Below, piece after piece: positions 28,286 through 61,232 of a stretch of DNA of 64,000 nucleotides (positions within the stretch are counted from its first letter, which is position 1; each line of letters opens with the position of its first letter). The stretch is from Lingula anatina. Taxonomy: Eukaryota; Animalia; Brachiopoda. Location of the stretch: contig CM120640.1 of assembly GCA_051362555.1 (NCBI GenBank), forward strand, positions 22,303,725-22,367,724, in the 5' to 3' direction. The notes beneath the pieces are model-generated. The model was not told the DNA's origin and made no database searches. It saw nothing but the letters and a program-made list of their open reading frames with translations. A program made the translations under genes and the position numbers.

Positions 28286-28713
28286 CCAAGTGGTCATCTT
28301 GGGATGGTTGAGTTATCCCTGAACTGCTTAGTGGCCAATTGGGGAGTTAGGGCTATTGGACATATTACCACTTTGATCCTTGGTAGAGTGGTAACCTATA
28401 TAGAAACAAATTGTACATTTTTGTGTCATTGCAATAAGCCCTTTATTTACAATGAAAGTTGGATACATGTTTGTAATGTGAAAGAAAGACCTATTGTATT
28501 TTAACAGAAACTCTCCTTTTGTAATTTCATTTTTCCTTGGTTTTGAGAAAACATTTTTGTAGGATTGTGCAAACTTTGGATTGTGGAAACTTTGAGGACT
28601 GGAGCATCGATGAACTTATTATTAATGATGTATGACACAAGTCAATCAGTTGGTGGAGAATGTATATACTGATCATTGGAGTACAAACCTCTCACAGTTG
28701 AAAGGCCATAGGT

Positions 28714-33305: not shown

Positions 33306-36300
33306 TCATGCCATATAAATAAACATATTGATGTTGTCTTCGTCCCTCTTCATATACTTGTGTTCAATAAGCCACTCTATTTGTTCTTTTATCATCTTCT
33401 TTGATGGCAAAAACATATTTTTAAGGATTTCAACCAGTTCAGTCTGAAGTGCTGCATTTGTTATTTTCTTTCTCATCTTCATGATTTTAACAATTGCTTC
33501 CTGAAAATAGAAAAGACAATCTCAACTAAACATGTCATAAATCTGAAAATTTTAATTCCGTCAACTTTATCTTAGTTTCTGGCACAATGCAATGTATACT
33601 TAAAGATTTCCAAGGAAAACTGAAGATTGACAGAAAATGAACATCAATGAATTGTTCTTACAACAGTCTGAAGACATTCACTAACCTGAACTCTGAGTAT
33701 TCTCAGCTGTACGATTCCTTCATTGTCCTCTTCTTTACTCTTCTCTGTAGACAGTTGCAGTCGACCAATAACATTGATTTTACCACGTTTTTGTACTTTG
33801 CCATTTTTTCTGAAAAAATGTTTGTACACACACAGTAGAATTGATACCATTAGCTGGGGTGTATACTGTGTCAAAAATTTAAAAGAGGCATGAAAATATT
33901 TTCACTTTTTTAAAAATATGCTTAGTTTCTGTGACATTTTGATGAGCATACAAACAAACTGCAAGTAAAAATACATATGTTGCAGTGTATTTAATGCATA
34001 GATAAGAGACTGCAAATTTTATTAAGAAATAATTTATGAAAGTACACTTACATAAGAGAGAATTGCTGGTTAACATGAAACAATGTGCTATCTCCGAAGT
34101 CTTTCGGAGATTTAGCCTCGGGTTCACATAATAGCACCTGTCTTTTTAACTTTGGAAATGCCACTAAAGACTGAAATATAATTTGTTTATGTTTGTAAAT
34201 GCAATTTTTTTATTTCTGTAAAACAAACGCACATGGGAAATTAACACAAGGATAGTGACTATTATACTTGATTCATGCCTAAATGAATTTTTAAGTTTCT
34301 AAAATATATTTTCGATCTCATATACATCATCAAATCTCATATACATAAAAATGCCATTAAAAAATAATAAATGGCATATAATAAGTACAGAAAAAGATTA
34401 TTTTTGATTTGCCTTACCCATAGTGTTCTCCTGAGTTCAGAGTCTGGAAGTTCAGTTGCTAGTTTCAAATTTTCATACGTAATCTTCTCCTTGGACCTCT
34501 GGTTCCAAGCAAATAGGACGGCCATTTGAAATGTGGTCACTTCCACATCAAATTTCCCTACTTCATTTGTAAATGTTATCTGGAACGAAGAATAAAATCA
34601 GTTTTTCTGCAATTGGAGACATCAGGTTCTAAAGCTCTGTGCAAGTGAATTAGTTTAAAACCACACTTATACAGGAATGTAAGAAAATCATGTTACATTT
34701 CATTACAGATTAATACTACAGTCCTGCTCATCTCTGATGCCACTTACAATGCCATTTGACATGAGATGATGCCATTGTAGTTTTCTTCCACTGTGTTTTA
34801 GTCTGTAAAATTCTTCCACTTCAGGTATATAGTCTTCTAGCTCCATGGGCAAGGACACAGAAACACGGTCACTACTCCTAGCCCAAGCACCAGCATTCAA
34901 TATCTTTATGTTTATAGATTCTGAAAGGAGCATTTTGAACCAAAGATAAGTACAAATATATAAATAATCACTGAATAAACTTAATTATATCTATGAGAAA
35001 TATTATTTCAGTTACCACAACAAACTGGATTACAACATACATTACTACATATACATCGATAAAATCTGAAAACTGCCACCACATACCTGCAATTCCTTCA
35101 TTGTTGTTTCTGTGAGCTTCTTTGAATTCAGTGTTTAAATCTTCACTGACTTTAATATCTTGGAACATCCTAGCTAGTTTATTTACATAATCAGCTGGCA
35201 TGCCAACTTCCTGAAATGTCAAAAGCAGGTTGATATGTTTGTTAATTTATGTACCAAAATCAATGGTTCATAGTACATTAAATGTATTCACATATAAAAT
35301 ACTCGAGATAGCAAAATTGTATCAGAATGTACTGTTTTCTATGTTAATATTTTCATGGAATTAACTAGAAAGCAAAGCATTTATGTCAAAAGGAGATACA
35401 ATAATTACCCTCAACCATTCCACCATGTTTTCTTCTTTCTCATTATCTGCGGAGGTGTCTAGGATCAACCTTCTTGTTAAATGAGCTTTATGGTATCTCA
35501 TGAAGACATCTTTGTTTTGTACATACTTTAAGACTAAAAGCTGCAAATAATACAAAATCAAATGGAAAAAAATGTACACCACCCTACTTCGTATATCATG
35601 ACTTTTAAAAAATGCCACTGTAAATTTTACCAACAACACACTAAGGAATGCTAAGAACAGTATGAGAAATGCCAAACTAGCAAAAGCAGTCTACAAGATG
35701 TTAACAGATCATACAGATATTTTTGTGGAGTTGATGAATATCAGAGAAGGAAGCAAAGAAACATACATATACAAAATACTTACTACATCTTTCAATTTCC
35801 TTTCTACCTCCTCTGAAGTGAGCTTTTTACTGAGAGGTGTTTTTCTTAACAACATATCACAGTAGTTTGCCAGCAGCTCTGGGCATTTTGATTCTGGTTG
35901 CGTTTTGGTGCCAACCCTAAATAATATCATGTAATAATAACATTACAGGAAAATCCATAGATGGTAGATGACTTAATTTAACAACAAACAATTAATAATA
36001 TTAACTACAAAAAGGTTAAAGCAAAAAATCCTGGTAAATTTCCTCAATGTAAATTTCTTACCCTTTGTTTTTCACTGGTAAGTCCAGTTTGAATATTTTG
36101 GTATCATTCACAACTTCCCTGTAGGCCTAGAATTAGATAATATAAACAAAATATAGTACACTAATACTTTTTCAATTTAGTATATCAACTGCAAAACAAT
36201 TTGACAATTAAAAACTCACAGGTAAGTCACAGTAGGGGAAAATCCCATTTTTAGGTAAGGATACTATTTTTTTACTTCTGACTGCTACTGAAAAGTTATT

Positions 36301-39300
36301 CGATTGAAATCTACCCTGAAATGAACTAATCCAAGTCTGTCATTCCACTTACTTTGTCTCTGGAAGTCAGGAATCTTGGATCATCTCCAAAGGCTTCACT
36401 AACAAGCTCACTAAACTTGTTAAACAAGGCAAGCAGTTGTTCAACATATTTTTCAGAGTCCTGAAAATAATGTCGAGAATGTCGATGAACATGTTTGCCA
36501 AGTAAGAACTTTTCATTTTTCCTTCATACCAATGATAGGGTAGTCTTTGTGAGTTTGGCTTTTTAAGTGGCAAAAATATGGATACTTTAAAGTTTAAAGC
36601 CAAAGTATGTTGCAAAGGAACCCTAAACAGTTTCTTACTGTGGTGATGGTGTCGGCAGCATCCATCATATCTGCCAGTCCAGCATTGATCACATGTTCCT
36701 CTAAGTAACATAACATTGGCTGGATACCATCTGGTACTCTGTCCATTAAACTGAACATCAAACGGAGTTCTGAAACACAGGAATGCATTAAGGTGTGACA
36801 TGTAAAATTATACCAATTTATATGTCTATTCCTCCTTTTCTTGTCTCTAAACCTTCAGGATAATAAATAAATATAATGCTTACTTTCTGTCTCATTTCTC
36901 TTTATCATCCCTGGTCCTTCTGCTAGTATGGTTTCTTTAAAAGCAGTCACTAGGGCATTTACACAGCATTCTGTCAACTGAAATGCAAATTGTTATATCT
37001 TTAATATACTTAAACATTATAGAATCATTTTAGGTTTCATTCATTACTTTCCAGTACAGATATTCAAAAGATATCCATGTGATATTAGTCTGCCCATGGT
37101 ATTCCATGGTCACTCAAATAAGGTTTATAAATAAGTTTACATAAATAAATGTTGTCAAAAATGCAGTTAATAGCAAAATATGCTGGTTAAAAACCAAAAG
37201 CATATTCTATTTTGTCCAACACATAACTGCAAGAACTCACTGCAGCTACAGAGTTGCAACCCTTCCTAGTTTCCAAGTATCTCTGTGCCCTTTGTTCTTC
37301 TTCCTTCAGTTTCATCTCTGCATATCTCATGTAATTCTGAACTCCATTGGCATCTAGATATTGTGGAGCCTTGGCTTTGTAGAAAGAAGCTGTTGCATCC
37401 AAATAGGCTCTTTCAAAATTGTCTCTGTATATTTTTAGTTTGTCTTCAGCATCTGAACTCAGGTTGACTAAAGGACAAAACAAAGAAAGATTTAACAAAA
37501 ATTAATACACATATTCCTAATAGTATTATACAATTAAACATTTGTATGGTAAGCCTCATAAATTTGATATACAGATGAAATCTTTTCAAAATGGAAGAAG
37601 CAAAAATGACAAAAGTTGAACTGTTTCTACTGATACTTTCTTCATATCAGTATAACAACAAAAATGATTCACGTAAAACAGTGTTTCAGAAAACAAAATT
37701 AAAGATGCATACAAAGTCAATTTTTTGTCACAAAAACCAACCAAATGCCAGCATATAGTTTCAAGTAGTATAACTAAGAGAATTACCAAAAGGCATTGTT
37801 TAATTTTACCCGAAAATGATGTTTGAACGGATTTTTCTGCTGGCATTTTAAGCTGTATGTCAATGGGGCAGGAAAACAGGTCACGAAAGTAGGTTATATT
37901 TACAACCAAAAATTTAAAGAAAGGAGCAGTCTAAAGGTCTTTCATGGCTGATCGAGTAATCTATTCAGTTTATCTCTTGGCATGTCGAATTTATTTGAGT
38001 CATATAAGAATCTAGTAGAAGTGGTTTACATGTGTTACTGGGAATCCACGCTCCATCGATGCTCGGTTCGTATGTACCTTTAAAAATTTAAAACAGTGAT
38101 AAAATAAATTAATGATTTAATAATGAACCAAATGTTGTAAGAATTCTATACTCTGTTCACACTTGTTACATGATTATTCTTATCTTACCATAAGATTCTC
38201 TGACTCCAATCACTAGCTGCGAGTCAAATGCCTCCCCATTTCTTTCTGCATGCACCAATTTCATAGCACTTCCCTGTAGCCTGTGTTTGATGTTGGAGAA
38301 AATGCTCTGGTTCCAACTATCTAACATTAACTGAAACATACAAATTTTACTTGCTTAGCTTTTCTGTGTATGGGAGGGAGGTAGTGTTCATCATGACATG
38401 AAAGCCTGCTTAATTTGATACAATTTCTTTTACAAGCAGAAATAAGAACAGGACCTACTTTTCTGACTATAGATTCTTCCCCTTGATTTTTTTTCTGTAT
38501 TGTGCTGTGTGGCTTCCCTGAGAGAGAACTCTCTAGCTGGCCAAAGGGCTTTGGAAGATAATCACATTGCGCAAAAAATTTACTCCATTCTGCTATGTAG
38601 GCTTTCAATAACGCAGAGTCCTCCTGATGTTGGAGTACCCTCTGAAAAGAAAAGCAATGTAATCAAGGCAAGGCCTAGAGCACTGTTTTGGTCACAAACA
38701 ATACACTAAAAAGTCCTTTTGCCTAAGGACTTGCTAGAACTTTCTGGTATTTTCTAGTTCGCGTCTTCTTAATCTGCACCATTTGAGTGTGTTTTGAGAT
38801 TAAGAAGACGCGAACTAGAAGATACCAGAAAGTTCTAGCAAGTCCTTTGGCAAAAGGACTTTTTAAGTATGGTCTATTTGTTCACGTGGCATTAATCTGC
38901 ATTACCATTCCATTTAACACTTGGAAAGTGTCAAAGAAAAAAAGCTGCTGTTCCCTACATTTATCATTTTATGAAGTACATAAATTCCAATTTCTATTGT
39001 CTTGCAATAGATTTTGGGGTCTTTTAAAATAAACCAAACCATAATGTTATGGTCTTAGAATTGAGATTAAACAAAATTTAAAATAATGTGTGTCTGACTG
39101 GATAAGTGAATGTTACTTACTGTCTGCGCCTGTTTAATGAACTCTAGAATATCTGTCTGCAATGCCTCATGTACCTTATTAGGTCCTTTGTCATCCCACA
39201 AACAAACTGAATGGACAGACCTACAGGTAAAAATTAAATTGAAACAGTTATTCTAATGTTGCAAATTAATATAATAACCCTGCTCTCTTTATCATATTGT

Positions 39301-40316: not shown

Positions 40317-43087
40317 ATGGCGGACAAGGTAGAAAATGTACAGGCTGAGCATGCTGGAATTCCTAAAGCAGTTTTCGTGGTGAGTCTTAGAAGAATTCCT
40401 TCTTTTATATGATGCGATAAGTTAAGATTGATATTTTTCTTGACATAAAAAAACAGCAGCTGTCTGGAAAACTTCCTTTGGCAATATTATTAATGATTTT
40501 GAAGCCTATGTAAAGGTAGTTAGGGAAATTATGATAAAATTTAGTTAAAATAACAGTGTCAAGTTCTTTCCTTATATAGTTATTAGCCTTTATGTTGATA
40601 TACTTAGTGATTTGTATTAACAATATGGTTTCAACATCATGCTGTAATTCTGACACTTTTGATTATGTAAATAAAAGTATTTTCACCCTTTGCTTCACTC
40701 TAACCAGTTGCTTACATACACAGTGTATTATTTTGCCAGTGCTACTTAATTCTAGCAATTCTCATGATCTGTTGTTCAACACACCTTCAGAAACCAATGA
40801 TTGCAGTTTATTTTTCATTATGCTTTTTTCTCAGTACAAGAACTGAATTGCTCTTCTCAGTGACCTGTTAATGTCACAGATTGAGAACCAGGCAGTAATT
40901 AAAAATTTGTTTGGATTGCAATCTGGTCTGCAATACTTGAGAAGTATGTCTAGAACAGGATACTAATAGGTACTAGTACAGGTCTCTGAGCAAATTAAAC
41001 TTGTTTCTAATTTAAAGAAGAATAGGTAATCAGCTTGACTTACTAAAGCAAAATGGTCCTTTAACCATAAATAAAAATATAATAGGATGTCACCACCCTG
41101 CTAACTTGTTAAATAGATTAATATTTTATATAGAACTTATAATGATAGTCACTTTCTTTGACTTAATGAGGATGGCCTATGCTGCTTGGACACCAAGAGT
41201 GCATTCCCAGAGAATTAGATTGATCCATCTAGATCGACCTAACTCCCTGGGGGTTCACGCTAAATTGCAGTCAGCCAAGTGCGCACGACAGTTAATTACC
41301 CCCTTACAGCTTTTAGTAGGCAGGACAGACGCTTAAGCCGGCTAAGCTGACAGTAATCTAGTGAGACTCTCCATAGGGACACATCAATCTAAAATCTGTG
41401 GGATGGGGTTTAAGTCAGTACAGAGAATTCTTATTATTAAAGAGCCCCTATTTTCACAGTTAAGACAGACCAGTGGTAGGAAGTGTCATATCAAGTTATG
41501 GGTGATTAGTTTACAGCTTGGTTTTATCAATTTATTCTCAACTGATCCATCGAAAGATTTGAAAAAAACTTGCAATAAAAGAAGAAAATTGGTCCAGGTG
41601 TTTAGGCAAACAGCATTGAAGATAGTAAAAACTATACCCCGGTATATAATTCCTTAAGCACTTACTAGTAATTGTTATTTCAAATTTATATATATTTATT
41701 AAATCACACTTAGTATTTGCTTTGTATTTTATGATTGCAGGAAGATGTAGATGCATTTATGAAATTGCAAGAAAATGAAGTTCCAGAAACTGTTCTTAAA
41801 CGATTAGATGAACAACATAATAAATACAAGTTTATGGAATATAATCTTATGACAAAAAGAGGCAGGTATGTAAGAGAGCCTTTATTTTTGATAATCAATA
41901 TTATTAAATGTTTTGTTACCTAATTAAATTATACACATCCATGCACACACACATTGATATTGATGGACTGATCTTTGCATTTTCATTTCTTTGATTCAGT
42001 TGAAAATGTTTTTCTTATTTCAGACTTAAGAGTCAAGTGCCAGATATAAGAAGTACACTAGATATTGTCAAACATATGATTTCAAAAAAGGTAAATTTAT
42101 ACATTTTAACTTATTTTGATATTTAGATTTTAATAGATGTATATAAAGACTTACAAAAATTTTATAAAAGAAAAATTTTTTTTGCACGTGCCTAGCAGTA
42201 TGTGTATGCCTTCTTTTTTTTTTCATTTGAATTTCAGTTGAAGTAAAATGACCAACTTATTAATGTAATCAATATGTGTAATGATAATTGTTGTTCAATG
42301 TTTACCTGAAGATATCATTAAGGTTGTTATACCTTAGATTTTCTCTGGACATAATTGAAAACACAACTATTTTCTTTTTCAGGACTCTTCTGAAACCCTG
42401 GAGACGAGGTTTCTTTTGTCTGACCAGCTATATGCAAAGGCCAAAATTCCACCAACAGATAAAGTGTGTTTATGGTTAGGGGTGAGTGTCACTGCATTTT
42501 TTTTTTTTTAATACAGTTTCATACAATTTCAAGTGAATAAAATTTGGACTATCAGAGAATAGAAATGTCTCAGATAATTTGTGTGCGTCATTATGAGTCA
42601 TTTTGAATTTATGGACTACTTCATGTGTAAAATGATGTGATATATTGTAACAGTGAAATTTGTTGATATTACAGGCCAATGTTATGTTAGAATATACCAT
42701 AGATGATGCAGAAGCACTTCTAACCAAAAATCTTGAGGCAGCTACTAAAACACTAGCTCAGGTAGAGGAAGATTTGGGCTTCCTGAGAGACCAAACAACA
42801 ACAATAGAAGTCAGTATCCTTTTTGCTGCCAAGATTATGAGAATTTTATGTATAACATTTTTATGTATAGCATATTCGAAAATGGTTGCCATATTCTGTG
42901 AATTAACTACTGTATGAATCAATTTTCACCCAAAGCACAAGTTTACCCTTGTTCTGGTTTTTGCATGCAGTAAGTCCTTAACTGATGCTCAGACATGGCA
43001 CGTGTATATAACTGGGACGTTAAGCGCCGGCAAGCACTGAAATCTGCTACTGCTGCACCAACCCCCACTGCTACTCCATCCTCCTGA
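40317..43087 (+). CDS. VBP1: Prefoldin subunit 3 (VHL-binding protein 1); 6 exons
   Basis: GIPKAVFV/EDVDAFMK...LKRLDEQHNKYKFMEYNL/...ETRFLLSDQLYAKAKIPPTDKVCLWLG/ANVMLEYTIDDAEALLTKNL...FLRDQTTTIEV/NMARVYNWDVKRR. Confidence 0.96.
42814..42992 (+). other. U12-type (minor spliceosome) GT-AG intron, last intron of VBP1
   Basis: 5' site GTATCCTTT, branch point TCCTTAAC (42975-42982) 10 nt before the intron end, and no polypyrimidine tract. Removal restores EVNMARVYNWDV. Confidence 0.93.
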
Positions 43088-45161
43088 TGATTGTCAAGAC
43101 TTTGTTCTGAGCTTGTTTGTGAACAACCGTACACCTCCTGGCAATTTTCTGAGGGTTTACTGAGTAACACCCACTCATCTTTAGTACATAAACAGTCATG
43201 TCAATGTGTGCATGTGTCACAGCACTTAGACAATTTTTTTTTCTCATTCTTTGGAATGCTAGAAGTGTTGAAGCTTTGATGTAGTTGATGGAGCAGAGAA
43301 TTTGGACAGACCCTGGATGTTGAGGATTTCCACATTGCCGTGAAGACTGAAAATGGCAGTCAGACCTGCATTCCATGTGATTTTTTTCTTCATGCATTGT
43401 TTTGGGGAGACAATTACAATAATTGGAGTTTCAGTTTAAAGTTCTTTATGCTAGGTAGACATAGGTCATATAAGAGAAAAGGCATATGATTTATCACATG
43501 AAAATGCTTCACTGACCTAAAATCGGGTCACATGCAAGGGATGTTTGTTGATACATCTTCATATGGCAGAGGCAATGTCCAGGCATGAATTTTGTGATCT
43601 GAAGTCCTAGTAAATTTGAGCATTTGTTCATCTGCAGATGTACTCTGTTTTATTAACAGAATCTTTTGTAATAAATTTCTCTACCAGTGTGCTTCATAAC
43701 ATTTGTTGTTATTTGGAAAGAGATGTTAAAGGAATTGTGGAATTTACTTTCAGAATATGGCCTGAAACAATGCATTAGGTAAATTCACTGCAATGTTTTC
43801 AATATCAAATTTACAGTTAAACTTTTTTCCTTGAGAGCACGCATGCAAACAGATAATAAAATAATAATTTCTGTTAAACACGGCACATATTTGAAGCATT
43901 TATTGCATAAATATAGGCTAGCTATTCCTCATTTCAGAAGTTACTATCACAAGCATTATTACTAATACGTAGTTGTAATAAAAACACGGGATCACATTTA
44001 TCAATATTTTGTGTGAAGGAAACTGCAACAGAGAAATATGTATTTTATCAAATTGTATTTTTTGATAAATATCCTGTTAGGATTAAATCTACACACGTTC
44101 TTCACTATTGACAGTTGATGATTGGGCAGGTCTGTAAACAAGGAAGAATTTGAGTATGGATCTGGTTCGAGGAACTGCATTTTTATCACACAACAATAAT
44201 ATGGCACTGTGCCCCTAGAGCAGTTAAGACAAGCACAGGGAGAAGACAACAAGCCACACATTTCTTGTGGAAGATGCAGGAGGCTTACTTTTTGTTTAGA
44301 GCACATCTCGGATCAAGTGAAATTGAGTTGTTGATTTTTATTTCAAAATGAGAAATTTGATACACATTTTGCCTTGAGAACAAAATGAAAATAAAGTGAT
44401 TTTTGAGTAGTTGGTATTTGGGAAATATGTATTTTATTAGGCATTTCCTGTTCGGTTAAATAATGTCATACATACCATTAAAAAAAGAAAAGTTCAAGGT
44501 AGTTGCCTCTCAAGCACTCAAACAAAGTTATCATTTAATTCAAAAATAAGTTGAAAGTTTAAATTTTCTCTTTAAACAGATTAGAGGTAGAGATGCAGGA
44601 AAATTTTTGCCTGTTATCAGTTGGAATTGTTCTTACAAAGAAATGAATAATCACATTTTTTCACATTGCAGAAAGGAAAGGATTGGTATGATGGAAAGAT
44701 GGAGCCAAGATTCACAACCACTAAAGAGCACTGTTTGGCTTGTTGTTTTGAAGGAAGTAAAATATTCCTATATCCCTGATCTATTATAAGATATGTCAGT
44801 AAATTATCACATATATAATATTGAATAGAGAAATCTACAAATAAAACCATAAATAGCAGAAATTGCATGATATGCATTTTCAAAGAAACATAAAATATAT
44901 ATTTAAATGATTAAATAGCAAATGTTTATTCTTGACAGACTCTGAATGGCAAGTTCAGTTTTTATCACTGAATGTCAAGAAAAATCAAGATGATACTAAA
45001 ATTGCAAATATGGCAATGTCTTCAGGCAACTTGGAACCTTTCAACTTTTGTATTTCAGTGCAAGTCTTTCCGGGCCAGTTCTTATGTAACTTGAAAAAAA
45101 AAAATTCACCTCATTTCAGTTACATTTTGCACAATGTTCCCATGTTAGATGATGCAAGTTT

Positions 45162-48100
45162 TTACTGATGTTCTGCCATCTTTGGGCCAAACATTGGACC
45201 CTTGTAGTCAGGACGGTGTCTTGCCTGAAAATATAAATATTAGAAATAATGAAATATTTTATTTCTCCTATAAATTGCAGAATTGTCCATGATATTTAGA
45301 TTTTATAATTTTTATTATGTACTAAGCTCTTAACGAATGCCATTTTTTTTCTTCTCCATGAACACCATTTTTAAATGGGTAAACTGTTCATGTGGCATAG
45401 TCTCAGGATGGGGTGCATTTTAGTGAAAAGCTAGATATACAATGAAACAGAAATAATATTAAGTCACTATTGATTGGGGTTTTCTTTTATGTTGTCATTG
45501 TTTTCTACTGTATTCAGGTGTACTTGGCCCTTACTGTGCGTCCTAGTGCCATGAGAGTCATGGTAACCTGGCTTATATCTTTCTTCTCCCAGAGATCTAC
45601 AGTTTGGAAGACATCCTCCTCGGGGACTCCATAGTGCTTCAGTGCCTGCTGGAATGCCTCAATGTTCTGCATCAGAGTGAATGCCCCGCCCTTGGTGTGG
45701 ATTCTCTTCACACTCCCTGGGGCCAAGGCGTTGATTAAGCTGGGAGGAAAAGAAAGTTGGGGTTGGTTTTGAGGTGTGAGTGTAAGAAAAATATGCAATA
45801 ATACCAGTGCATTAGGAAAGTGTAAATTTCTCTCCCAGAAGTTCTTTCTCTTTCATGAAAATGGTGTTTCTCTCTGTGAGGAAGGACTATTTTGGGAATG
45901 ATGATTCATGTTACAAATGAGGCATCAACATTTGTTTTAACCTTGCTTAAAATTGTTTATTTTGCAAATTAAATGTTCACCTTTTTTTCATTTGCATAAC
46001 TTATTTCCTTATTTTAGATAATTATTAGGTATTTATTGTTATGCATAGTGTTGTGTGTTGTATTTGCCACCAAACAGTACAAATAGGTATATTAAAGAGG
46101 CTGTTTGTGATTTTCTCTTCTTTTTTTATTTTGTTTTTTTTTTTAATGTACACAATAAAACTGTTCCCAGGCTAAAAAAAATTTTACTTGAAATGTGAAA
46201 AATTGAAAGAATATATGATGGTGTTCATTTAGTTTAGACCAAGAGACAAAACGTGGCCTCTAAAATTTTTATTAACAGGCAGTTAATAAATATATATGCT
46301 GTGTTTTCTGCTGAATTAATGATGCTCATAATGACACATAAAATGTTCTGTTCTACATAGTTTTTTAAATTTATGAACATTTATTTTCATAGAAAGCATG
46401 ACAGAAATCTCGACTCAAGGCTACTCTGTACCAGAGGCCAGCTGGGTTTTGATGTCATTTTGTGCAAAATTCCTCACATGACAGAAATGCGAACTGAATT
46501 AGCCAGGAAAACATCTGCATATATCTGGAGTCAAAAGATCTCTCCTGCCCTGGTAAAGGTAATACGAGGCCATGCTAACTCTGAACTGATGTAATATTAT
46601 GGAGTTCATATACGTAAATGATTTGACACAAAGCATTTCAGGCCCCCAAAACTTGTTTTTGGAATGGCAATTTTAATTTGACTAATATTCTTACAAAGGT
46701 TAATAACATGTTTACTGCTTTTTTATGTTTTTTTGGTGTGTTTGTGGTACAGGAGCACATCATACTGCTGATTTTAATCTCACTTTTGATATTTCATCTT
46801 CACCTCTCCACCTCACCCATGTAATTATTCAAGGCACTGTATCCACATGCATTTTCCTTTTATTTATTTACATATTTATTTTATTTATTTATTTGTGGTC
46901 CAGATTGTAATTTTCATTTATTGCCATAAACAACCCCTGCGCATGATCTTAATTTTTTCTACAATGTGAAGTTGGGATATTTCAGATGTTGCATACAAAA
47001 GTCATGAAAGTTTTATCCTTAACAAAACTGACTTTTTGAACACGAACAGTGCCCTTTAAGTTACTCTGATAAGGAAGAGTAAGCAACAGAAAGTGTGTAA
47101 AACAAATTGGCATAACTAAGGTCATGATTTATTCGTAACTTAAAGTAATTTGGATTTCTTAAAAGAAAATAATTTCTGTTATGGTTTTCAAAATTTAACC
47201 AAATAATTGTTAATGGTAACCAAAATGAAATGATGAAATTTTCCTTGAGACAAATAATGCACAATGTATGAAAGGAAAATTTTGATAAACTTGGGACTAT
47301 GTATGAAGATCTCTTTATGTTCATCAACCTGTGTCAATATTTGTTTACTGCTTGTGTAACTATTTTAGACAACTGAATTTCTAAAGGTAGTTTATATTTT
47401 GATAAAGCATGGCGTGAAAGGTAGAATGAGATATCCATGCATTAAAAGTAGTTAAAACATTGATAAACAACTGGAACTTAATCCTGTAATAAATAGTTTA
47501 AATTTTACAACAGGTATACCCAAATGAAATTTCTTTTCAGCATAAGTGTTGAGCAATAGTGTTATTGAATCGATTTGCTGAATTGACACAAAATGCTGTA
47601 ATCATTCCTGAAAAAATCAAGCAATGATGTCAAACCATTTGTTGGGTTGGGCTTCATTTCAGCTTAAGGGATGCTGTAAAAGAAAAGAATAAAGGAGTAA
47701 ATGATAACTGGAAGAAAACTGCTTGAATAGCTGATTTTGTGCCCCAGTGGAAGGTTAGTAAAAGCCATTCGAGTCCGACTATAAGCATAATTCTTTAGTA
47801 ATTGGTGTACATATCTGAGCCCTGGCTGCAAATTTAAACTGTTGTTAATAGGGTTAAACAGTTTAGCTAATAAAAAAAATGAAATAATAATAATAATAAT
47901 AAAATTGTTAATAAAGCTTTATTTGGCAGAGATTATTATTGCTAAAACAACACTTTTTTTAAGGGTGAGTGCAGGTTATAAATTCCCTTAGTAAAGTAGT
48001 TCCAATGTGTAAATGGAGCAGCCTTTTTTCAACCAGTCGTAAGCAGTTTGTTGCATGTGCTCAGAGGTGTGACTGCCATGGGCATGCACACATAGCATAT

Positions 48101-51100
48101 CACACCAAGCATAGGTATATGCAGAACAAAGCAGTATCTGTGCTCCACGTGTCAGGAATATTTGAATAAAATATTTAGGTTGGAAGCTGAGGCAATATTG
48201 AATAAAGGGGCGGAATTACCTTGTGTAAAATAAGTGAAGACGCATAACTTTCATGCCAGTAACCAATAGAAAAGGCAGAACTGTAGGATTGTTATTTAGG
48301 GTATTTGTTGCAGAAACAGCAAAATGCTATAGGAGATGTTAAGTAAATGGGGCACTTTTGTTCTGTGAAGACACTAATTCATCTTCAGGAAAATTCATGA
48401 TAATGGAGAAAAACTTGTTAAAAATATTCAGTGTTTATGTAGATTTCTCATGGACATTAAAACTTTTAAATGGGAGACTATATATGGCTTGGGTATTTTT
48501 CAGATTTTTATTTTTTATTTAATTAATATGTGTTTAGTTAATTTTTTATGTGGATTGGATTTTATGTTACTTGCCATAAGCTGAGAGAAAATAGTGTCCA
48601 GTAAGATCTTAGGAACAGGCTGGTACGAAGAAAGAAAAGTGTTAACTAGTTCAAACATTTTAATTGTATAAATAAGTATTGCATTGAATATGATGACAAA
48701 CACAAATAAAAAATATCAAGACATTGGAATAGCAAGTAATTTGCTGATTTATTAAAACTGCTTCAAGGTAATACAAATGTTTTCTTTTTTCTTCCCTTCC
48801 AAAAGCAGCATGTAATAAAATATTTTACAAATGATTTACAAATGATGATTCTAGAAATTGTAATGTTTTCATAATGCATGGAAGGGGTAATTTCAAATTG
48901 ATTATATACCCAGATTCTGAGGTTGTCTTAAGCATTTATTTGGTCTATTCCTATTCATTTTTCTTAAAGAGACAGAGTTTATGTTAAAGGTTTAAGTCCC
49001 TTAGTCTTAAAAGACACCAAGTGCAAAGTTCAGACAAATCATTCTGTCATCTTTCTCAGCACAAACAGTTTCTAGTTCTAATCATAAACCAATATCCATG
49101 TTGCTGTTGACAACTATCTCCATGGCAACTTTAAACATTCTATCTTTAACTGGTAACAATCTCCTCCCTTCAGGGAGCTTTGTGTGCTGTCAGAGATGAG
49201 AGAAAGCCTCCGAGATATTGATGACCAAAGTTTGTTCGGTGTGGTACATCTGTCTCTAAGCTGCAAACTGCAGACTTAGTGAGGTTTGGGTCCAAAAACG
49301 GGTCCAGAGTAGTCGGACTTTGTCTGTGCCTAGAAAATAGCAAATATCTAGCAGTATAATCACTAAATTCCAAATGTAGGTGTATCAAAATTACTATGTT
49401 TATAGTGTTGTTATGGTTACAGTGATGTCCATCAAAATGTATGTCAGAAAACGCCTTGTTATTTTTCATGAAAATCCCATATCACAAGACAATACTGACA
49501 CTGATAGATGCAATATGAAAGTCAGTCAATATTGTTAGAGTTTTTAAAATTCCATGCTTATGTTGGCAGTCAGTATAATGATGATGTCTTGGGCAGAATG
49601 CACAGATGTTCATATAGCGTGCTATCATTGGCTAGTCCACAATGTGGCGCGTATTTCCAATATTCATGCCAGACTGGCTTGCCCCCTGATTTGAACCCAT
49701 CTGCAATCCAATAATTGTTTGTCCTGCTCTCATTTGCTCATCTGTAAATTGGCGAACATTCTTTTCTGCGGGCTTTGGTCCAAAAATGGGTCCATTATAT
49801 TCAGGATGCCTTTGGCACTAGAAAAAGGATACATGCAGCCTGCTAGTAAAAAATGTTAGATTATACAACAAAATCAAACAAGCATGTTCTTAAAAACAAT
49901 ATAATTAAAGCATTTGTTTACAATACTGAATGTGGCTTGACTATGGGAAAATTGATTTCATCAGTTCAAACAATTTAGAGATCGATTTTGACAGAAAACC
50001 ATCTCTAAAAGATTTTATGAACAACTAAACCAAAAATTTTGAAATAATGCCTCAGAATTGGAATTGAAAGAAAATAGAGAAAAAAGTTTGAAAGAATTTG
50101 AAGATGAAAAGAAAATTGTGTACAGTGGAGCAGATGATATTCATTGGTCTGCCCTGATGAAATATGAAGGAAATTGGTTGGGTACAACAAGCAGAAAAAA
50201 ATGCCTACTATTGTAAAAAAAAAAAAAATAGAACAGTAAAAATCAAGGCGTTTAATAATGAGCTAAGCTAGGTACATTTCTATTGCAAAAAAAAAAAAAA
50301 AAATGTACAAATAAATGATAACTGTCATTTCTTAAACACAAAATTTCCAAATTCAATGATTATGAGAAAATCCTATTTTATCCATAACATATTTCTATCC
50401 ACTGAAGCCAGGTTTTAAAAAAGGGAAAGTGTAGACAGTGTTGTGGAATGAAATGAAGTAAAAGCTGGCATCATGATCCATGCAGTATTAGTTGGTTAGT
50501 ACAAAGCAGAGTGCAATTTGAAGTTGTGAATGCGTGGGCAATAAAAAGTGTGACACGTATCTTGCCGGGAGAAGGAAACGAGAATCTGCTTTTATTACCA
50601 TTGTGATTTAAAAAAAAAATACTTACACATGTGCCCAAAGCCTGGAGTGCATTTGTTACAGCGGGGATGTTCCTCTTCTCCCACAAGTCTACACTCTGGA
50701 ACAAATCCTCCTTGCGGCAGCCGTAATCAACACATGCTTGTGTGAACTGCTCAAGGTTGGCCATCAGCAGGAAAGCGCCACCGGATTTGTTCACCTTTTT
50801 CACTGAGCCTGGTTTCAGTGCGTTGATCAGGCTGAAAAGCAGAATGGAGCGTTTGCAGGGACTCCAGCATACTCTTTATGTTGAAAATACATATTAGTAG
50901 TCAGACTTTTTTTTAAAAGTTGCCAACCACACGAAAACATAGCATACCCACTGCAACAATGCGTTCTGCAACGAAACAGCCATTGGCATTTGTTCTCTTG
51001 CACTAGAAATAGTCTTTACGAATACAATCTATTTTAATGTGCAAAAATTAACAAGGAAAAAGTGCACGATAAATTATAAAGGCATTGAATTTGTCTTGAA

Positions 51101-54100
51101 ATTCATTTACGAATTATTTGTTCTAGTTATCTAGGGAGGCACAAAATGTCTATACAATTTCAAATTTTGACAAGACCACCGATTTATCACGGTCTGCCTG
51201 TATTTGGCAGGTATTTGCATTTTACACCAGTCATAAAAATTGGTTCATATATAAAGCGTCACCAATAAAAATAAATCCTTGCAGTGAAAAGCCGTATTTA
51301 AGTTTTTTTTTCAGTTCGATTTTTCACGATCACAATGAAGGTTTTTGAAATTAAATAATTTATTTGTACCTCCCGTAAAATGAGTTAAACTTTTTACCTC
51401 AACTCAATTATTTACCAAAAAAAAGCAATTCACATTAGTGCAAATGTTCTGAAAACAAACGGTTTTTAACAAACGATACGCTTCTTTTTTTTTTAGTCAA
51501 GCATTCCAATCGCACTTAACTCCCATTATACGTTTAAAATATATTGCGTACTAGAATGGAATCTCAGGATAGATAACAGCAGTATTGAAGTATTCATTTC
51601 TTAGCATTATTCGTAGTTGTACGGGGATGGATGGAAATCACAGTGCAGCTAAAGCCCATAAAAAGCAATTGGAAATAAATAAGATAGGCAGATGATTTTT
51701 TCCAAAACCCTTTCTTATGGGTCCTGATAGGGATGCAAAGTGACAAGAGACGACATGGCCAGCATTCAGTAAATAAATCCCTGGAGATACTAGGTGGTCT
51801 GAGTAGCTAAAGTAGAACTGAACCACTGAGGAGATACTACAGAGAAGTCTTGCCGGAGACTAGGGTGCTTTGAAGAAGCTAAGCTCTAAAAAGAGTCACT
51901 GCACTACAAAACTGGATCTCGAAGAGTCTGGAACAAGAATGAGTGTACATAATAGGTCACGATGGAGGCACTGCACTACACACAGTTCAAAATTCACTTA
52001 CCATTTTACCTATCAGGCTTTACACAGGCCTCCTACGTGCGTGCCCTCCAGCTAAGTGGTCCGTTCACGTGTGTGGAATAGCCGTAAGTCTTTAAAGAAT
52101 GAAGAATGGGCTGTAAAACCTTTTTTCTAAATGTTATTTATTTCGAACAAGTTTCGAACGATTTACATATACAGAGGGAGTTCAAATATATGTGCATTGG
52201 ACTTTTGCCGGCAAGGTGTTTGCGCAAGATTGAGGACGGCACAGGTGTACTGAAAGTTGCCTAATTACAACCAAATTTAGGTAGTCGTCTAGGGAATTTT
52301 ATCTCTACGCAACGGGAAGATGTGCACACTGGGGCCCACAGCAATCTGAAGGGTGGACAGGGATTTCCTTTTCCTGAGCAGGGGCAGAGGTTACAGATAC
52401 TGCTTTGCGCATAGGATAATCATTTCGCAATCCATCGGGATTTTATTTTCTTACTGTTGGCTTTTTAAAGGTCATTTTTTCATCGCACCTATTTTTTATA
52501 GTGTAACGTACGTTAATACAAACAGAGCGTAAGCCAAGCGACACCACTTTCATTTGCATGCAAAGGAATGTATATGACCAGTAGATCTAAGAGTTTAATG
52601 CGAAATGCTCAGTGATAATTTCATGTATAGTCATTTGCGCTCTGGCGATTCCTTTTTGAAGTTCGTTTTCAGGGTTCTGCATATATTTCACTATATGTAT
52701 GTAAGGGAAGTGAATAAATAAAAAGAAAAAATTATTGTTGCGTTAGAAGCTTGAACATTTCACTTAAAGCTATGATTATTAATTATTTCACCACAAAGTA
52801 AATATTGTTTCCTTGCAAAAATAAATAAACATAAAATAAGGATTATAAAAAAAAGATATAAATAAATATATAAAGATCTCCGACACTTCTGGATGTAACA
52901 AATGATAATGAAACACTGGTTCATCATAACTAAACTTGTAAAATCAGTTTTATATTCGGAGATTAATTTATCATGGACCAAAGGATAAAACAACTGAAAC
53001 GTTAGGTGTTTGATCAGTAGGAAAGCTGATCTTTGAAGAAAAGAACATTTTGTCCTGAAGGGTGCGCACGCAATATTCGCATTGTTTTCAAAAGTTTTTT
53101 CGTTACATCTCTTTCATTTGTTACTCGTGCCGTTAAAAAAAAAATAAATAATAAAATAACAATAAAATAAAATAAAACGCGTACACACAGACACACACAC
53201 ACAAAGAGCAACACTCAGTGCAGAACAAATCATGTGGTCTACCCATTGGTGTGGTCATTTTGTGTTGTTCATTCAAAGGGACCGTCAGTGGGATTTACGC
53301 GAGGAAAGAAAAGAAAAATATCTTTGTGTCACCGAAAATCTCATAGTGATTAGTTACAAGCACTTGATTGAGTATCAAAAGAATGACCTGAATATACATA
53401 GTAAGGCAATCCTAGTATTTTTACTACGGATGTAGCTTCAGTGCAAGGATGGTGATTTCATTACTGACAAAAAGTCGCACCATGACATTGAGAGTAAAGT
53501 GCACGTTTAAGACAAAACCCTTACGGACGGTCCCTTAGGCAGGGCGGAGAGCGTCCACTGTAAATTACCAGACCAAATCTCAACAATATGGTACAAATAA
53601 AGGAGGTTTGAAAATTTGCATTTATTGGGGTTTACCCTCCCCCTTCCCCCGAAAAAAGAGGGGTTATTAATACACTCTCCGCCCTTAGATTAATGGCGTT
53701 TTCATAATATTTACTAGACCCCGTGCGTTCGTGTTGTTGAGGACATCTGGATAAGGGAGCGATGTGTGTCGTTTGCCTGAAACACCTGAAAGGTGAGTTA
53801 AAGGTAAGCAATGGACAGGAAACACCAAAGACTGATGTGAATGGACAAGCCAACAAAACATGGTTGGTAGTTTGCACCACGCGAGCCATGCGCACCCACA
53901 CTCACTTGCACAACACTACACCATCTCGAAGAACATCCTCGAAGGCGCCAGAAGGAACCGCCTGCCCAGTCACCGCACCGATCCAGTCAAGAGCTGCTTG
54001 TTCTAGTTCAGCATCGCGCTTGCCTGCAATCTATGATACAGGTGAAATGATTAGCAGCATAAATATATAACTGAACAAGGCCACAAGGGAACCCCTGTTA

Positions 54101-56529
54101 CCTTTCTTATTTAACACATACTTGCAGAGAATGACTCCGTCCCGGAGAACCTCTTCATACGGTCTGTCCATGTCAATTTTGTACGAGTCACCCAGCACGG
54201 CTTGTATCCATTCTAATGTTTCGCGCTCTACGGCCGGGTCCCGCTTTTTGTCAATCTTACAAACAAAAAATAAGTAAATAAATAAAAGTGAAAATAAAAA
54301 CGTATAAACAAAAAGGTGAAATTAATGTCCAAAAACTCTTGCAGTCGATGTGCATCATTTAGCGTTCTACCATTTATTCTTCAAATCAGCAATTGCTTTT
54401 TTATTCTTTTCCGAACAGGATTAAAAATCCATATTATAGCACAAGTTCGATTAAAGAAGGTGTATATGATCCCGGGGTTCCTGTTCAGAAGAATCGACTC
54501 AAATACGATAGAAATGAAAATAAATGGAACAAAAGTCAACTGAACACAAATAGGTATATAATACTCATAAAACCATACTTATTACATTAAAATATAAAAT
54601 AAATCTGTATGCTCAATATTGAACTCAGCTCTCAAGACATCCTTTTACATTTGCAATACTTACAGCAAAATCACTGACATTCACACTTTTGATAAATCTG
54701 ATACAATATATGTAGAGTGTTTACGTACCGCATGTTATCAAACGTTAAAACCAATCTGAAACACCTGGAAACCTGTGCTCATTGTAATGAATTACAGCAC
54801 AGTTGCTCAGATACATTAACTGAGACCGAAGCTAATCATAAGATAGGCAGACGATCGTAAATACCAAGCTTTCCCACATTCTAACCAACCTGCCAAATAT
54901 GGCTCGACTAAGTCAAGGTGTTTCGTGTATAAAGTTAAAATTTGAAACTAAACGGAAGAGCAAAAATGCGTCCTGTCTTTAGCTGCATTAGGCTTTAGTT
55001 ACTTGGGCAAGGGATATGCTGTTAATATGAACGTCTATAGAATGTTCCATGGAGGGTTTCTACTTTTAAATCAAAAATGATAGTTAAAATGTAATTGATA
55101 ACCTTTTTTTTCTACTTTTAAATCAAAAATGATAGTTAAAATGTAATTGATAACCTTTTTTATTAGGATTGAGGATTACAGTTTGACTTTTGCCAACTCA
55201 AACACTAGTGAGTTAAGAAATGGAAACTATTCAACGTTCCTGTGCAAACATGGATTCTATTATATGGATTCCTTATGCCACACGTCCCCGGATTTTTGCT
55301 ACAATTTGTGATTAAATCACATCCCTCTTAATCACGTAATGATTAGAGTACTAAGTGACCAGCCTGAAATAATTGCATATGTTTTTTTTTTCGAATGATG
55401 CATATAGACCTATATAAGAATATCTGATCTTTTTTCTTTCTTTTTTTTTTCAAGTCAAGCACATCGTTTCATCTATTCTTTTTCAGTGAGAGGTACATAC
55501 AACTAAGGATGAAACGTGGAGTTGTGATTAACACTCCTGACTCGCAGTGCTATACTCGTCTTGCTCGGTTAGCTAGTGAAAATTCGTAGCAGCTATATAA
55601 GGGAAGAACGCATTCGCGTGGGCACGAGCTTGGTCATTTTTTTCTTCCGTGAAGTGCGGTTTTCTACCTGAGGTCCCTATCATTCCTGATTGAGTGCCAA
55701 ACATAAATTACAGCGGGTGGCCGAGATGCCTGTCAAGACGTCTGAGGTATGCCAGCTTTAGGTCTCTTTAGGGAATATCAATTGAATTATTCACAAATTC
55801 GAAAATGGGAATTTAAACATGGCAGAATAACAAAACTGGTGTCCAATATAAATACTAGGGCAAGATGATTCATTTATTTTTGGAATGATGGAAAATGTGA
55901 ATATATTGATAAAACTGTGAGCATACACGTTTTGCGAACTGGAAAAACAGCTTTTAAAAAATTTAGAGCATCACCGCCCTCTCTCTTTCATACATCATCA
56001 AAGTAAAAAACACGTAAGCTGAGACGAAAAGATCTGATTTGTTCTGCCTCCGCGGAATTCCAGGTAGACAGACATTACATTGCCCGCAGCTGGATAAACA
56101 GGGGGAAGCAAAGTTCAGCGTCTGGCTGGGAAATAGTTCCATCGCTATTTATCAATAAAAACAAAGAATAAACTTGCGCCTTCGTGTTTTTCAACACGAG
56201 TGGTATCGGCTAAAGTTTAAACCCACCTTCATTTAAAGCACAATATTTGATGTATAAATCAGCGCATGACTTGAGTGAACATAACAAAATTCGTGTCACT
56301 TCTACAAAAAAGAATAATTAGCACCACAAAAAAAGGACTAGGATATCCATTTTACGTAACTTTCGTTAATAGTAAGCACGTCGTTAAGACTATGAACAAC
56401 GGAACTTATGGCACAAAAAATTAACTATTCAAATATCGATATAAACAAATATACAATCGGCAGAAAATGTACCTTGTTAGCAATGTCCCTGGCAATACCA
56501 GCGGGCTTGGCTCTACTATCTGAACTCAT
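45162..56529 (-). CDS. Transgelin/myophilin/Mp20-type calponin-homology protein with duplicated alternative exons: E1 56473-56529; E2a 54122-54255; E2b 53906-54030; E3a 50627-50831; E4a 49632-49817; E4b 49276-49329; E3b 45535-45739; E4c 45162-45224
   Basis: E1 MSSDSRAKPAGIARDIANK. CH-domain exons WIQAVLG..LRDGVILC / WIGAVTG..LRDGVVLC and LINAL.PGSVK...FQ.VDLWEK. Calponin repeat IIGLQMGSNQGASQSGMNIGNTRHI in E4a. All have canonical splice sites and compatible phases. Confidence 0.9.
46092..47059. mobile_element. Possible TTAA-flanked (Kolobok-like) non-autonomous element
   Basis: TTAAAGAGGCTGTTTGTG versus the reverse complement of CACGAACAGTGCCCTTTAA; imperfect match. Confidence 0.3.
54893..54902. 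promoter_or_regulatory. Consensus CArG box (SRF site) in intron 1 of the calponin-homology gene
   Basis: CCAAATATGG matches CC(A/T)6GG. Function is inference. Confidence 0.35.
55057..55161. repeat. ~52-bp tandem duplication
   Basis: TTCTACTTTTAAATCAAAAATGATAGTTAAAATGTAATTGATAACCTTTTT occurs twice. Confidence 0.9.
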
Positions 56530-59810: not shown

Positions 59811-60618
59811 ATGAAGTTTGTTCCACTCAGTTTACCTGCAGCAAGAAGAGACATAGAAAGCCTGCATGAATTTCTTCTTCAATGCAAGAAGCTGTTTGTT
59901 TTGACAGGAGCTGGAATTTCTACCCCTAGTGGCATCCCAGACTACAGGTCTGAGGGGGTGGGCTTGTATGCCCGCAGTAAGGACAGACCAGTCCAATACC
60001 AGGACTTCCTCAAACATGCACATGTGCGGCAAAGATACTGGGCACGGAATTTTGTTGGTTGGCCAAGGTTTTCCTCCTTCCTTCCCAACAGTGCTCATCT
60101 TAAGTTAGCAGAGTGGGAACGATGTGGCCTTGTCCACAGCCTGGTCACACAGAATGTTGATGCCCTGCACTACAAGGCAGGCAGTCACAAAGTGATAGAG
60201 CTCCATGGCAGCTCTCACCGTGTGGAGTGTTTGCAGTGTAAGAGAATTGTGCCAAGAGTGGCCATTCAGAGACAGATTGAGAGAGACAATCCTCACTGGC
60301 ATGCAGAGATTGTGGGGAGCATGGCTCCAGATGGAGATATACAGTTGTCTCAGGATCAGGTGAAAGATTTCAAGGTACATTAATTTTCTTTTCAAAATAA
60401 ATATTTAAAAAATTATTTGTCAGCATCATAAAGACTTGAAGAAATCTGCTGATATTCAAATATAAATGTACAGATGGCATACATGCCTCGTGTTTAAAAG
60501 CTCATGTATTTGTTAAATGTTTTTCAAAACCAAAATTTCAATAAAAAAAGTGAATTACAGGAAAAACAAATATATCACAAAAGAGGTTATATATGTTAGT
60601 GCTGCAAAAAGCATATGG

Positions 60619-60687
<69 letters not shown>

Positions 60688-61232
60688 GATTGTGCTATCA
60701 ATTAATTTTTTAGGTTCCTGTATGCAGTCATTGTGATGGAATTTTGAAACCCCAGATCATCTTTTTTGGGGACAATGTGCCAAAACCAATCGTTGAAAAT
60801 ATTTATTCAAGATTGACAGAAAGCGACAGCATTCTTGTACTAGGTTCTTCCTTACAGGTTGGTTTAGAATACCTCAGCATAATCATATGATACATAAAAG
60901 TATTTATAAGTGTGATAAATAGTATTTAGTATTCATTTACATAATAAAAATTCAGTTGAAATGAATATATATTTGTCACTTGTGGAAAAAGCAAGATCAT
61001 AAATTAATAATGTTATTTATTGTTTTTAATGTGCTCATTTCAAATCATACGTGTATCTTTTTAGGTTTTCTCAGGATACAGATTTCTCAGGGCTGGCAAG
61101 GAACAAGGAAAGTCCATAGCAATAGTAAATATAGGTCCAACTAGAGCTGATAACATAGCAGATGTAAAAGTTGATGCAGAATGTGTGGAAGTGCTGCAAG
61201 AAATCACATTAAAAGATGTTGGGATATCATAG
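59811..61232 (+). CDS. SIRT4: NAD-dependent sirtuin-4; 3 coding exons (59811-60374, 60714-60857, 61065-61232)
   Basis: LTGAGISTPSGIPDYRSEGVGLYARS, RQRYWARNFVGWPRFS, VTQNVDALH, ELHGS, APDGD, ILKPQIIFFGDNVP, LGSSLQVFSGYRF, IVNIGPTRAD. Confidence 0.95.

What the first reader, a model, noticed from the sequence alone, without database searches (positions are those of the whole stretch)
45162..56529. Combinatorial exon-cassette calponin-homology gene: 1 x 2 x 2 x 3 homologous modules
Seen: a single start exon is followed by two paralogous exon-2 copies (134 and 125 nt, both phase 0 to 2). Next come two paralogous exon-3 copies (both exactly 205 nt, phase 2 to 0) and three paralogous terminal exons (all phase 0, all with the Y-x-G-P-x-F-G-P-K motif). 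Every module has an intact frame and canonical splice sites despite strong divergence, which argues for selection. I found no exon 1 or 2 between E4b and E3b, so E3b/E4c must borrow upstream exons. Inference: one locus could make up to 8 transgelin/myophilin-like proteins (2 x [E3a with 4a/4b/4c + E3b with 4c]). It would assemble the CH domain from interchangeable halves, like a small Dscam-type system in a probable muscle actin-binding protein. Whether this architecture is already described for this lineage cannot be judged from the sequence.
Basis: partly seen in the sequence, partly recalled or inferred. Interest (0 to 1): 0.8.

Follow-up and report, generated by a model that had tools for sequence, protein, structure and literature searches.

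The report
Exon-swapping muscle gene drops actin-binding motif
A lamp-shell (Lingula) myophilin/transgelin gene splices duplicated exons into four or five proteins, not eight, and its commonest messages end before the motif predicted to bind actin; likely counterpart genes in other animals carry a similar set of long and short last exons.

Summary
The eight exons are real, at the stated sizes and phases, on the minus strand. They form one gene. RefSeq already predicts three isoforms of it in Lingula anatina (XP_013403490-492). RNA reads from two studies show E2a and E2b both joined to exon 1 and to E3a, E3a joined to E4a and E4b, and E3b joined to E4c. The choice is not free: E3b is entered from E2a (43 reads), and no E2b-E3b or E3a-E4c join is listed. 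That gives five paths at most, four of them forced by read counts. Only E4a encodes the calponin (CLIK) repeat. Of last-junction reads, 95-98.5% use the short E4b or E4c, and no Lingula E4b protein came up in three searches. Three unnamed animals have two or three short last exons plus one 61-residue CLIK exon, but single E2 and E3 copies. The architecture is a known kind (mutually exclusive exons plus tandem 3' cassettes, as in Drosophila PGRP-LC). I found no description of it in this family.

The parts
56473..56529 (-). E1, shared start exon (coding part, 19 aa); a TATAAA lies at 56666, 137 nt upstream of the ATG
   Evidence: loose read ends at both E2 acceptors match the 3' end of E1
54122..54255 (-). 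E2a, alternative exon 2 (134 nt, phase 0 to 2): first CH helix to the start of the third helix; feeds both E3a and E3b
   Evidence: in RefSeq X1 and X3; model helices
53906..54030 (-). E2b, alternative exon 2 (125 nt, phase 0 to 2); seen joined only to E3a and to a minor exon
   Evidence: 7937 and 201 reads to E3a; in RefSeq X2
52002..52089 (-). Minor non-homologous 88-nt exon between E2b and E3a; frameshifting, likely splicing noise or a decay exon
   Evidence: 12 and 2 reads on its E2b side, 6 and 0 on its E3a side; early stop
50627..50831 (-). E3a, proximal exon 3 (205 nt, phase 2 to 0), rest of the CH domain
49632..49817 (-). E4a, long last exon (61 aa): linker plus one CLIK repeat; its 3' UTR appears to run on through E4b
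   Evidence: PF00402 at residues 36-59, E 7e-13; 119 and 12 junction reads, depth 106-158 at 49366-49590 in X4
49276..49329 (-). E4b, short last exon (17 aa, no CLIK); the dominant ending
   Evidence: 7979 and 211 junction reads; the same ending in the related protein P0003
48720..49275 (-). 3' UTR shared by E4b and likely E4a, with a likely poly(A) site near 48723
   Evidence: depth and molecule ends; AATAAA at 48753
45535..45739 (-). E3b, distal exon 3 (205 nt, phase 2 to 0); seen entered only from E2a
   Evidence: 20 and 23 reads from E2a; in RefSeq X3
45162..45224 (-). E4c, short last exon (20 aa, no CLIK), with a 3' UTR reaching at least 44300
   Evidence: 30 and 21 reads from E3b, continuous UTR depth; no Pfam hit

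Best explanation
This is one myophilin/Mp20/transgelin-type gene whose duplicated exons are spliced along a restricted set of paths, and its choice of last exon likely switches the actin-binding motif on or off. Shown: exon 1 joins E2a or E2b; either joins E3a, which joins the long E4a (with CLIK) or the short E4b; E2a also skips the whole E3a-E4a-E4b block to reach E3b-E4c. Shown: E2a/E2b use differs strongly between samples, and 95-98.5% of last-junction reads encode proteins without CLIK. Inferred: frameshifts and decay remove messages with both or neither E2, or both E3. Inferred: the E2a-E3b coupling most likely reflects cell-type-specific splicing and poly(A) choice, in cells that pick E2a and read through the proximal poly(A) site. 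Inferred from vertebrate calponin and SM22 work: E4a forms would bind and stabilise F-actin, while E4b and E4c forms would be near CH-only proteins that bind actin weakly or not at all and act through the CH surface, which the E2/E3 swaps vary.
For: Junction reads X4/X7: E1-E2b 5545/187 and E1-E2a 24/129 (loose ends matching E1), E2b-E3a 7937/201, E2a-E3a 4/120, E2a-E3b 20/23, E3a-E4b 7979/211, E3a-E4a 119/12, E3b-E4c 30/21. Coupling holds even if 4 hidden E2b-E3b reads are assumed: Fisher p 3e-52 and 2e-6. RefSeq X3 equals E2a-E3b-E4c with 0 differences; X1 and X2 differ from the window by 1 residue. Double inclusion or skipping gives early stops. CLIK is found only in E4a. The E2a-E3b-E4c protein folds as a calponin-type CH domain (pLDDT 84; best Foldseek match transgelin-2 1wym, TM 0.73). 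A related unnamed protein, P0003, is 132 of 146 identical to the E2b-E3a-E4b product. That actin binding lies in the linker and CLIK repeats, not the CH domain, is stated in passages of PMC3280177, PMC10285543 and bioRxiv 10.1101/2020.04.29.069104.
Against: Reads are 150 nt, so E2 and E4 are not phased across E3a; E2a-E3a-E4a rests on the RefSeq model only. The absence of E2b-E3b and E3a-E4c is inferred from a table that hid 11 weaker rows (weakest shown: 4 reads). Only 2 of 4 runs laid were informative (X1 and X3 had 16 and 19 reads), 6-25% of each run was read, and tissues are not given, so muscle expression is inferred from the family. Exon 1 was outside the stretch laid. No protein, binding or cell-type data. 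Homologues give no sign that E2a and E3b are an old co-evolved pair (rho -0.05, p 0.65, 81 proteins). E4b and E4c keep 7-10 residues after the first G-P, which might retain some binding.
Confidence: 0.75

Rival explanations
1. Free combinatorial system: all 8 paths are made, and the missing three occur in tissues or stages not sampled.
For: All 8 are in frame. Only two informative runs, and isoform ratios differ about 700-fold between them. Unnamed proteins P0004-P0006 place near E2b in the E2 tree and near E3b in the E3 tree, with unstarred support, so such a pairing may fold.
Against: In both runs E3b is expressed, yet its listed input is E2a only, even where E2b supplies 99.7% of exon-2 donor reads. 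E3b input (43 reads) nearly matches its output (51).
Confidence: 0.08
2. Same gene structure, but the E2a-E3b coupling is set by RNA base-pairing: an element upstream of E3b masks the E2b donor and loops out the proximal block, as in Drosophila PGRP-LC.
For: The E2b donor can pair with the region upstream of E3b (-27.5 kcal/mol near 48070-48097, reached by 4 of 100 shuffled targets; a 12-bp stem on the donor itself with 47965-47976, 9 of 100). The precedent is in PMC6191721.
Against: One of 15 donor-target tests; 3 of 30 unrelated pieces of the window pair more strongly with the same donor. No relative's genome to test covariation. The repeat search found only AT-rich inverted repeats among the 25 longest of 434.
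Confidence: 0.15
3. The short endings are functionally close to the long one (actin binding kept through the CH domain or the remaining linker), so the exon swaps tune level or partners rather than switch actin binding.
For: The short form is by far the most abundant (0.6% of all reads in X4 fall on this locus, mostly this form). CH-only clusters of 153-158 aa, commonest in nematodes, exist. The conserved G-P-x-F-G-P-K stretch is kept.
Against: Papers place actin binding C-terminal to the CH domain, in the linker and CLIK repeat; both short exons stop within that linker.
Confidence: 0.25
4. Two ordinary tandem genes, with E3b-E4c driven by its own promoter or being a dead duplicate.
For: Paralogous E3-E4 blocks lie in tandem, and tandem family genes occur elsewhere (L015, L027).
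Against: No exon 1 or 2 homologue between E4b and E3b; no reads at 45965-47962 in X4; direct E2a-E3b joins in two studies; RefSeq X3.
Confidence: 0.02

Closest known systems
Transgelin/SM22, Drosophila Mp20, myophilin (one CH domain PF00307 plus one CLIK repeat PF00402)
   Same: E4a isoforms have exactly this layout; nearest solved structures are calponin-1 and transgelin-2 CH domains. RefSeq names the Lingula isoforms myophilin X1, X3 and muscle-specific protein 20 X2.
   Different: The CH domain is built from alternative paralogous halves, and most messages lack the CLIK repeat. The passages read of the family review PMC10285543 mention splicing only once, in a reference to mouse h1-calponin.
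Tandem 3' variable cassettes with biased donor use: Drosophila PGRP-LC, CG42235, pip (PMC6191721)
   Same: Duplicated terminal blocks with their own poly(A) sites, shared upstream exons, and an upstream donor choice coupled to a distal cassette.
   Different: Here the upstream choice is between two duplicated exons, not two donors of one exon; the proximal block has two acceptors into one last exon; no pairing mechanism is shown.
Mutually exclusive duplicated exon clusters (Dscam1, muscle myosin heavy chain; PMC3228551, PMC9013439)
   Same: E2a/E2b are homologous, same-phase, same-position alternatives.
   Different: Only two per cluster, clusters are not independent, and E3a/E3b are separated by terminal exons, so they are 3' cassettes rather than an internal cluster.
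RefSeq models XP_013403490.1, XP_013403491.1, XP_013403492.1 (Lingula anatina)
   Same: They are E2a-E3a-E4a, E2b-E3a-E4a and E2a-E3b-E4c of this locus.
   Different: No Lingula protein ending in E4b, the dominant form, was returned by three searches; the collection may not hold every RefSeq isoform.

Membership tests
Transgelin/Mp20/myophilin | Single N-terminal calponin-type CH domain | tested here: met
   PF00307 at 70-75 bits in P0001, P0002, P0015; fold match to 1wym and 1wyp
Transgelin/Mp20/myophilin | One C-terminal CLIK repeat | tested here: met
   Met for E4a isoforms only; E4b and E4c isoforms lack it
Transgelin/Mp20/myophilin | F-actin binding and muscle localisation | not testable with these tools
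   No biochemical data; run tissues are not given
Mutually exclusive duplicated exons (E2a/E2b) | Homologous, same phase, similar length, adjacent | tested here: met
   134 and 125 nt, phase 0 to 2, 20 of 41 identical, 91-nt intron
Mutually exclusive duplicated exons (E2a/E2b) | One and only one included | tested here: met
   Both joined to E1 and E3a; no E2a-E2b join among the 15 rows shown, 11 weaker rows hidden; skipping of both could not be seen as a join because E1 was outside the stretch laid
Dscam-type combinatorial system | Independent choice at each cluster | tested here: not met
   E3b coupled to E2a, p <= 2e-6 in both runs
Dscam-type combinatorial system | Conserved docking-site/selector RNA pairings | tested here: inconclusive
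   Best candidates reached by 2-10 of 100 shuffles among many tests; no covariation test possible
Tandem 3' variable cassette gene (PGRP-LC type) | Duplicated terminal blocks sharing upstream exons, each with its own 3' end | tested here: met
   E3a-E4a/b and E3b-E4c, separate UTRs, shared E1 and E2a
Tandem 3' variable cassette gene (PGRP-LC type) | Biased coupling of upstream donor to cassette | tested here: met
Tandem gene duplicates | Each copy has its own first exons and promoter | tested here: not met

The most novel reading that the evidence does not exclude
Several animal lineages have kept or independently built the same switch in this gene: a cluster of duplicated last exons, of which only one carries the actin-binding CLIK repeat. 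In Lingula the CLIK-less, near CH-only protein is among the most abundant messages of some tissue, and nested exon swaps remodel its CH surface by cell type. It would be a natural, highly expressed test case for what a single calponin CH domain does without actin binding.
Probability: 0.35. Interest if true: 0.7.

Novelty: new variant of a known kind. Interest (0 to 1): 0.5.

Why it matters
The family review PMC10285543 states that no definitive biochemical function is known for the CH domain of calponin or transgelin. A gene that makes matched proteins with and without the CLIK repeat, and with swapped CH halves, gives ready-made natural constructs for that question. It also gives a compact case of coupling between an internal exon choice and a distal 3' cassette outside insects, and shows that the protein models retrieved miss the dominant isoform. 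It is not a new kind of diversity generator: five products at most, by known splicing modes.

Tried and rejected
No whole genome is held for this window, so no genome-wide paralogue search and no dN/dS per exon. No RNA holder was listed by index; nine raw-read runs came by species label, of which 4 were laid and 2 (X1, X3) held almost nothing of the locus. The read table of other letters hid 141 rows, so polymorphism could not be used for selection tests. Extra exon copies in the window: none. Ancient E2a-E3b pairing, or a nested E2b-E3a-E4 duplicate inserted in intron 2: not supported by score correlation; trees of 37-38 hand-picked proteins of 200 held, on 42 and 68 columns, are mostly unresolved. 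The AU test rejected E2a+E2b+P0003 as one clade at p 0.027 and did not reject E3a+E3b+P0003 (p 0.109), so the duplications cannot be dated. Multi-stretch hits of the representative search: the five inspected look like multi-CH proteins, repeats or mis-assemblies, not this architecture. RNA pairings: no result survives multiple testing. Steric exclusion of E2a/E2b: the donor-to-branch-like distance is about 68 nt, not clearly too short. No CArG or MEF2 match lies near the promoter (CArG at 49780 and 54893, MEF2 at 57581). The Atlas gave no usable taxon for P0005. The metagenome scan did not return the DNA of P0003 (best identity 58%). Earlier findings of this scan: none in three look-ups. Ten paper searches listed no paper whose title or abstract start describes this locus or this switch; most subscription papers are not in the library, and supplements (for example Supplementary Table 19 of PMC4595640, on mantle calponin) were not read.
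Full report
Observation. The window carries, on the minus strand, eight coding exons of a calponin-homology gene: E1 56529-56473, E2a 54255-54122 (134 nt), E2b 54030-53906 (125 nt), E3a 50831-50627 (205 nt), E4a 49817-49632, E4b 49329-49276, E3b 45739-45535 (205 nt) and E4c 45224-45162. All have AG/GT sites and matching phases, and 8 of 8 in-order combinations are open. tblastn with 14 family proteins over the whole window found these eight places at E < 1e-5 and nothing else better than E 0.13.

Identity. E3a and E3b each match Lingula anatina RefSeq proteins at 100%. XP_013403490.1 (myophilin X1) is E2a-E3a-E4a, XP_013403491.1 (muscle-specific protein 20 X2) is E2b-E3a-E4a, and XP_013403492.1 (myophilin X3) is E2a-E3b-E4c, with 1, 1 and 0 differences from the window. 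Automated annotation therefore already treats this as one alternatively spliced gene. All three have a CH domain; only E4a adds a CLIK repeat. The X3 protein folds as a calponin-type CH domain, and the E2/E3 boundary (residue 64) falls inside helix 60-69. No Lingula protein ending in E4b was returned by three searches, but an unnamed protein, P0003, is 132 of 146 identical to the E2b-E3a-E4b product.

Expression. Four of nine offered RNA runs were laid on 44300-54260. X1 and X3 had only 16 and 19 reads and are uninformative. X4 had 58,549 of 9.5 million reads on the locus and X7 2,273 of 11.1 million; X7 differs from the window at many sites. Junction reads X4/X7: E2b-E3a 7937/201, E2a-E3a 4/120, E2a-E3b 20/23, E3a-E4b 7979/211, E3a-E4a 119/12, E3b-E4c 30/21. 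Loose ends matching exon 1 sit at E2b (5545/187) and E2a (24/129). E2b-E3b, E3a-E4c and E2a-E2b are not among the 15 rows shown; 11 weaker rows were hidden and the weakest shown has 4 reads. Assuming 4 hidden E2b-E3b reads, the coupling of E3b to E2a stands at p 3e-52 (X4) and 2e-6 (X7). X4 has no depth at 45965-47962, so there is no sign of a second promoter.

Isoform count. Reads do not span E3a, but counts force three E3a paths: in X4 nearly all E4a messages must carry E2b (119 against 4), and in X7 most E2a-E3a messages must end in E4b (120 against 12). With E2a-E3b-E4c that gives four; E2a-E3a-E4a is possible and is a RefSeq model. CLIK-less endings make up 8009 of 8128 (98.5%) and 232 of 244 (95%) last-junction reads. 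Depth between the E4a stop and E4b suggests that E4a and E4b are two acceptors into one last exon with a shared 3' end near 48723.

Mechanism. Shown: the exon graph, its bias, and its change between samples (E2a is 0.05% of E3a input in X4 and 37% in X7). Inferred: frameshift and decay enforce one-of-two choice, since double inclusion or skipping gives early stops. Inferred: the E2a-E3b link most likely comes from cell types that choose E2a and read through the proximal poly(A) site. An RNA-pairing version, as in Drosophila PGRP-LC (PMC6191721; first eighth of the text and passages read), has a weak candidate: the E2b donor pairs with the region upstream of E3b (4 of 100 shuffles, one of 15 tests; 3 of 30 unrelated pieces pair better). 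Function is inferred from vertebrates and nematodes: actin binding lies in the linker and CLIK repeats, not in the CH domain (passages of PMC3280177 and PMC10285543; Introduction and passages of bioRxiv 10.1101/2020.04.29.069104). The last-exon choice would then switch actin binding, and the E2/E3 swaps would vary the CH surface.

Other animals. A metagenome scan gave 32 loci. I scanned 15 genomic-looking ones for terminal-exon homologues, with a profile built from the Lingula exons and 8 database proteins. L010 and L019 have two short exons plus one long, and L026 three short plus one long; L018 repeats the two short exons of L019; L030 has one short exon; L015 and L027 have one long exon only; L031 gave one doubtful hit; 7 gave none. 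Controls gave 0 hits (88 kb of the window, its plus strand, and the reverse strands of the 15 loci). The three long exons are 61 residues with CLIK at 36-59, as in E4a. L010 and L019 share the 205-nt exon 3 and the phases, but so does L027, so intron position does not prove orthology. Orthology rests on the similar N-terminus of P0004-P0006 and P0098 (58-65% to E1, against 20-29% in two other homologues), the similar C-terminal residues and an unstarred clade (85/69). These loci have single E2 and E3 copies within the 4.8-10.4 kb held, and the CLIK exon comes last, whereas in Lingula it comes first. Short exons resemble their own lineage's long exon more than the other's, which points to parallel duplication or concerted evolution. 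P0004-P0006 and the intronless L001 show that short endings are expressed there too. The phylum of these animals is unknown.

Against. Two informative runs, unknown tissues, no long reads, no protein data. E3b scores higher than E3a against 74 of 81 homologues and E2a higher than E2b against 30 of 81, with no correlation, so the coupling is not visibly ancient. Trees do not date the duplications. CH-only relatives already exist as protein clusters, commonest in nematodes.

Literature and verdict. Ten searches listed no description of this locus. In the main text of the Lingula genome paper PMC4595640, 'myophilin' and 'alternative splicing' do not occur (supplements not read). Passages of PMC5963113 report calponin and myophilin enriched in scallop catch muscle; passages of PMC3228551 and PMC9013439 show that duplicated internal and terminal exon clusters are a known class. 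Verdict: real, partly annotated, a new variant of a known kind. The Dscam-like reading is overstated; the CLIK on/off ending, its dominance and its recurrence are the parts worth following. Interest 0.5.

Noticed in passing
L001:62-707: An intronless contig in which the short, CLIK-less reading frame is followed 7 nt after its stop by the CLIK exon, now in the 3' UTR; either the short exon is spliced onto the long one or the assembly is chimeric.
   Followed up: partly
window 49323 (minus strand): A second acceptor 6 nt inside E4b is used by 4 reads in X4 and keeps the frame.
   Followed up: partly
window 52002-52089 (minus strand): A minor frameshifting exon between E2b and E3a, seen in both informative runs.
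   Followed up: partly
P0098: An unnamed 147-aa CH-only protein with an E1-like start that is closer to E2b and E3a than to E2a and E3b; a further CLIK-less relative.
   Followed up: partly
P0022: A 184-aa Mp20-like protein labelled Yersinia pestis, on a 681-nt contig and ranking among insect Mp20 proteins; likely insect host contamination of that record.
   Followed up: no
window 3210-6272 (+): An open 1020-codon frame with endonuclease and reverse transcriptase domains, a likely intact LINE-type retrotransposon.
   Followed up: partly
window 11714-13882 (-), 21500-23560 (-), 33300-38660 (-), 42657-42917 (+), 59811-61230 (+): Neighbouring ordinary genes: a nuclear receptor (zf-C4 and ligand-binding domain), a cupin-8 protein, a cullin, a Pfam prefoldin-like hit and a sirtuin (ranges approximate from open frames).
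   Followed up: partly
window 28286-28504 and 28746-28964; 55057-55160; 6950-7550: A 460-nt-spaced duplication (identical 72-codon frames), an exact 52-nt tandem duplication in intron 1, and a short-period tandem repeat array.
   Followed up: no
L015, L027: Other family members arranged as tandem genes or partial copies, each with a single CLIK last exon found.
   Followed up: no
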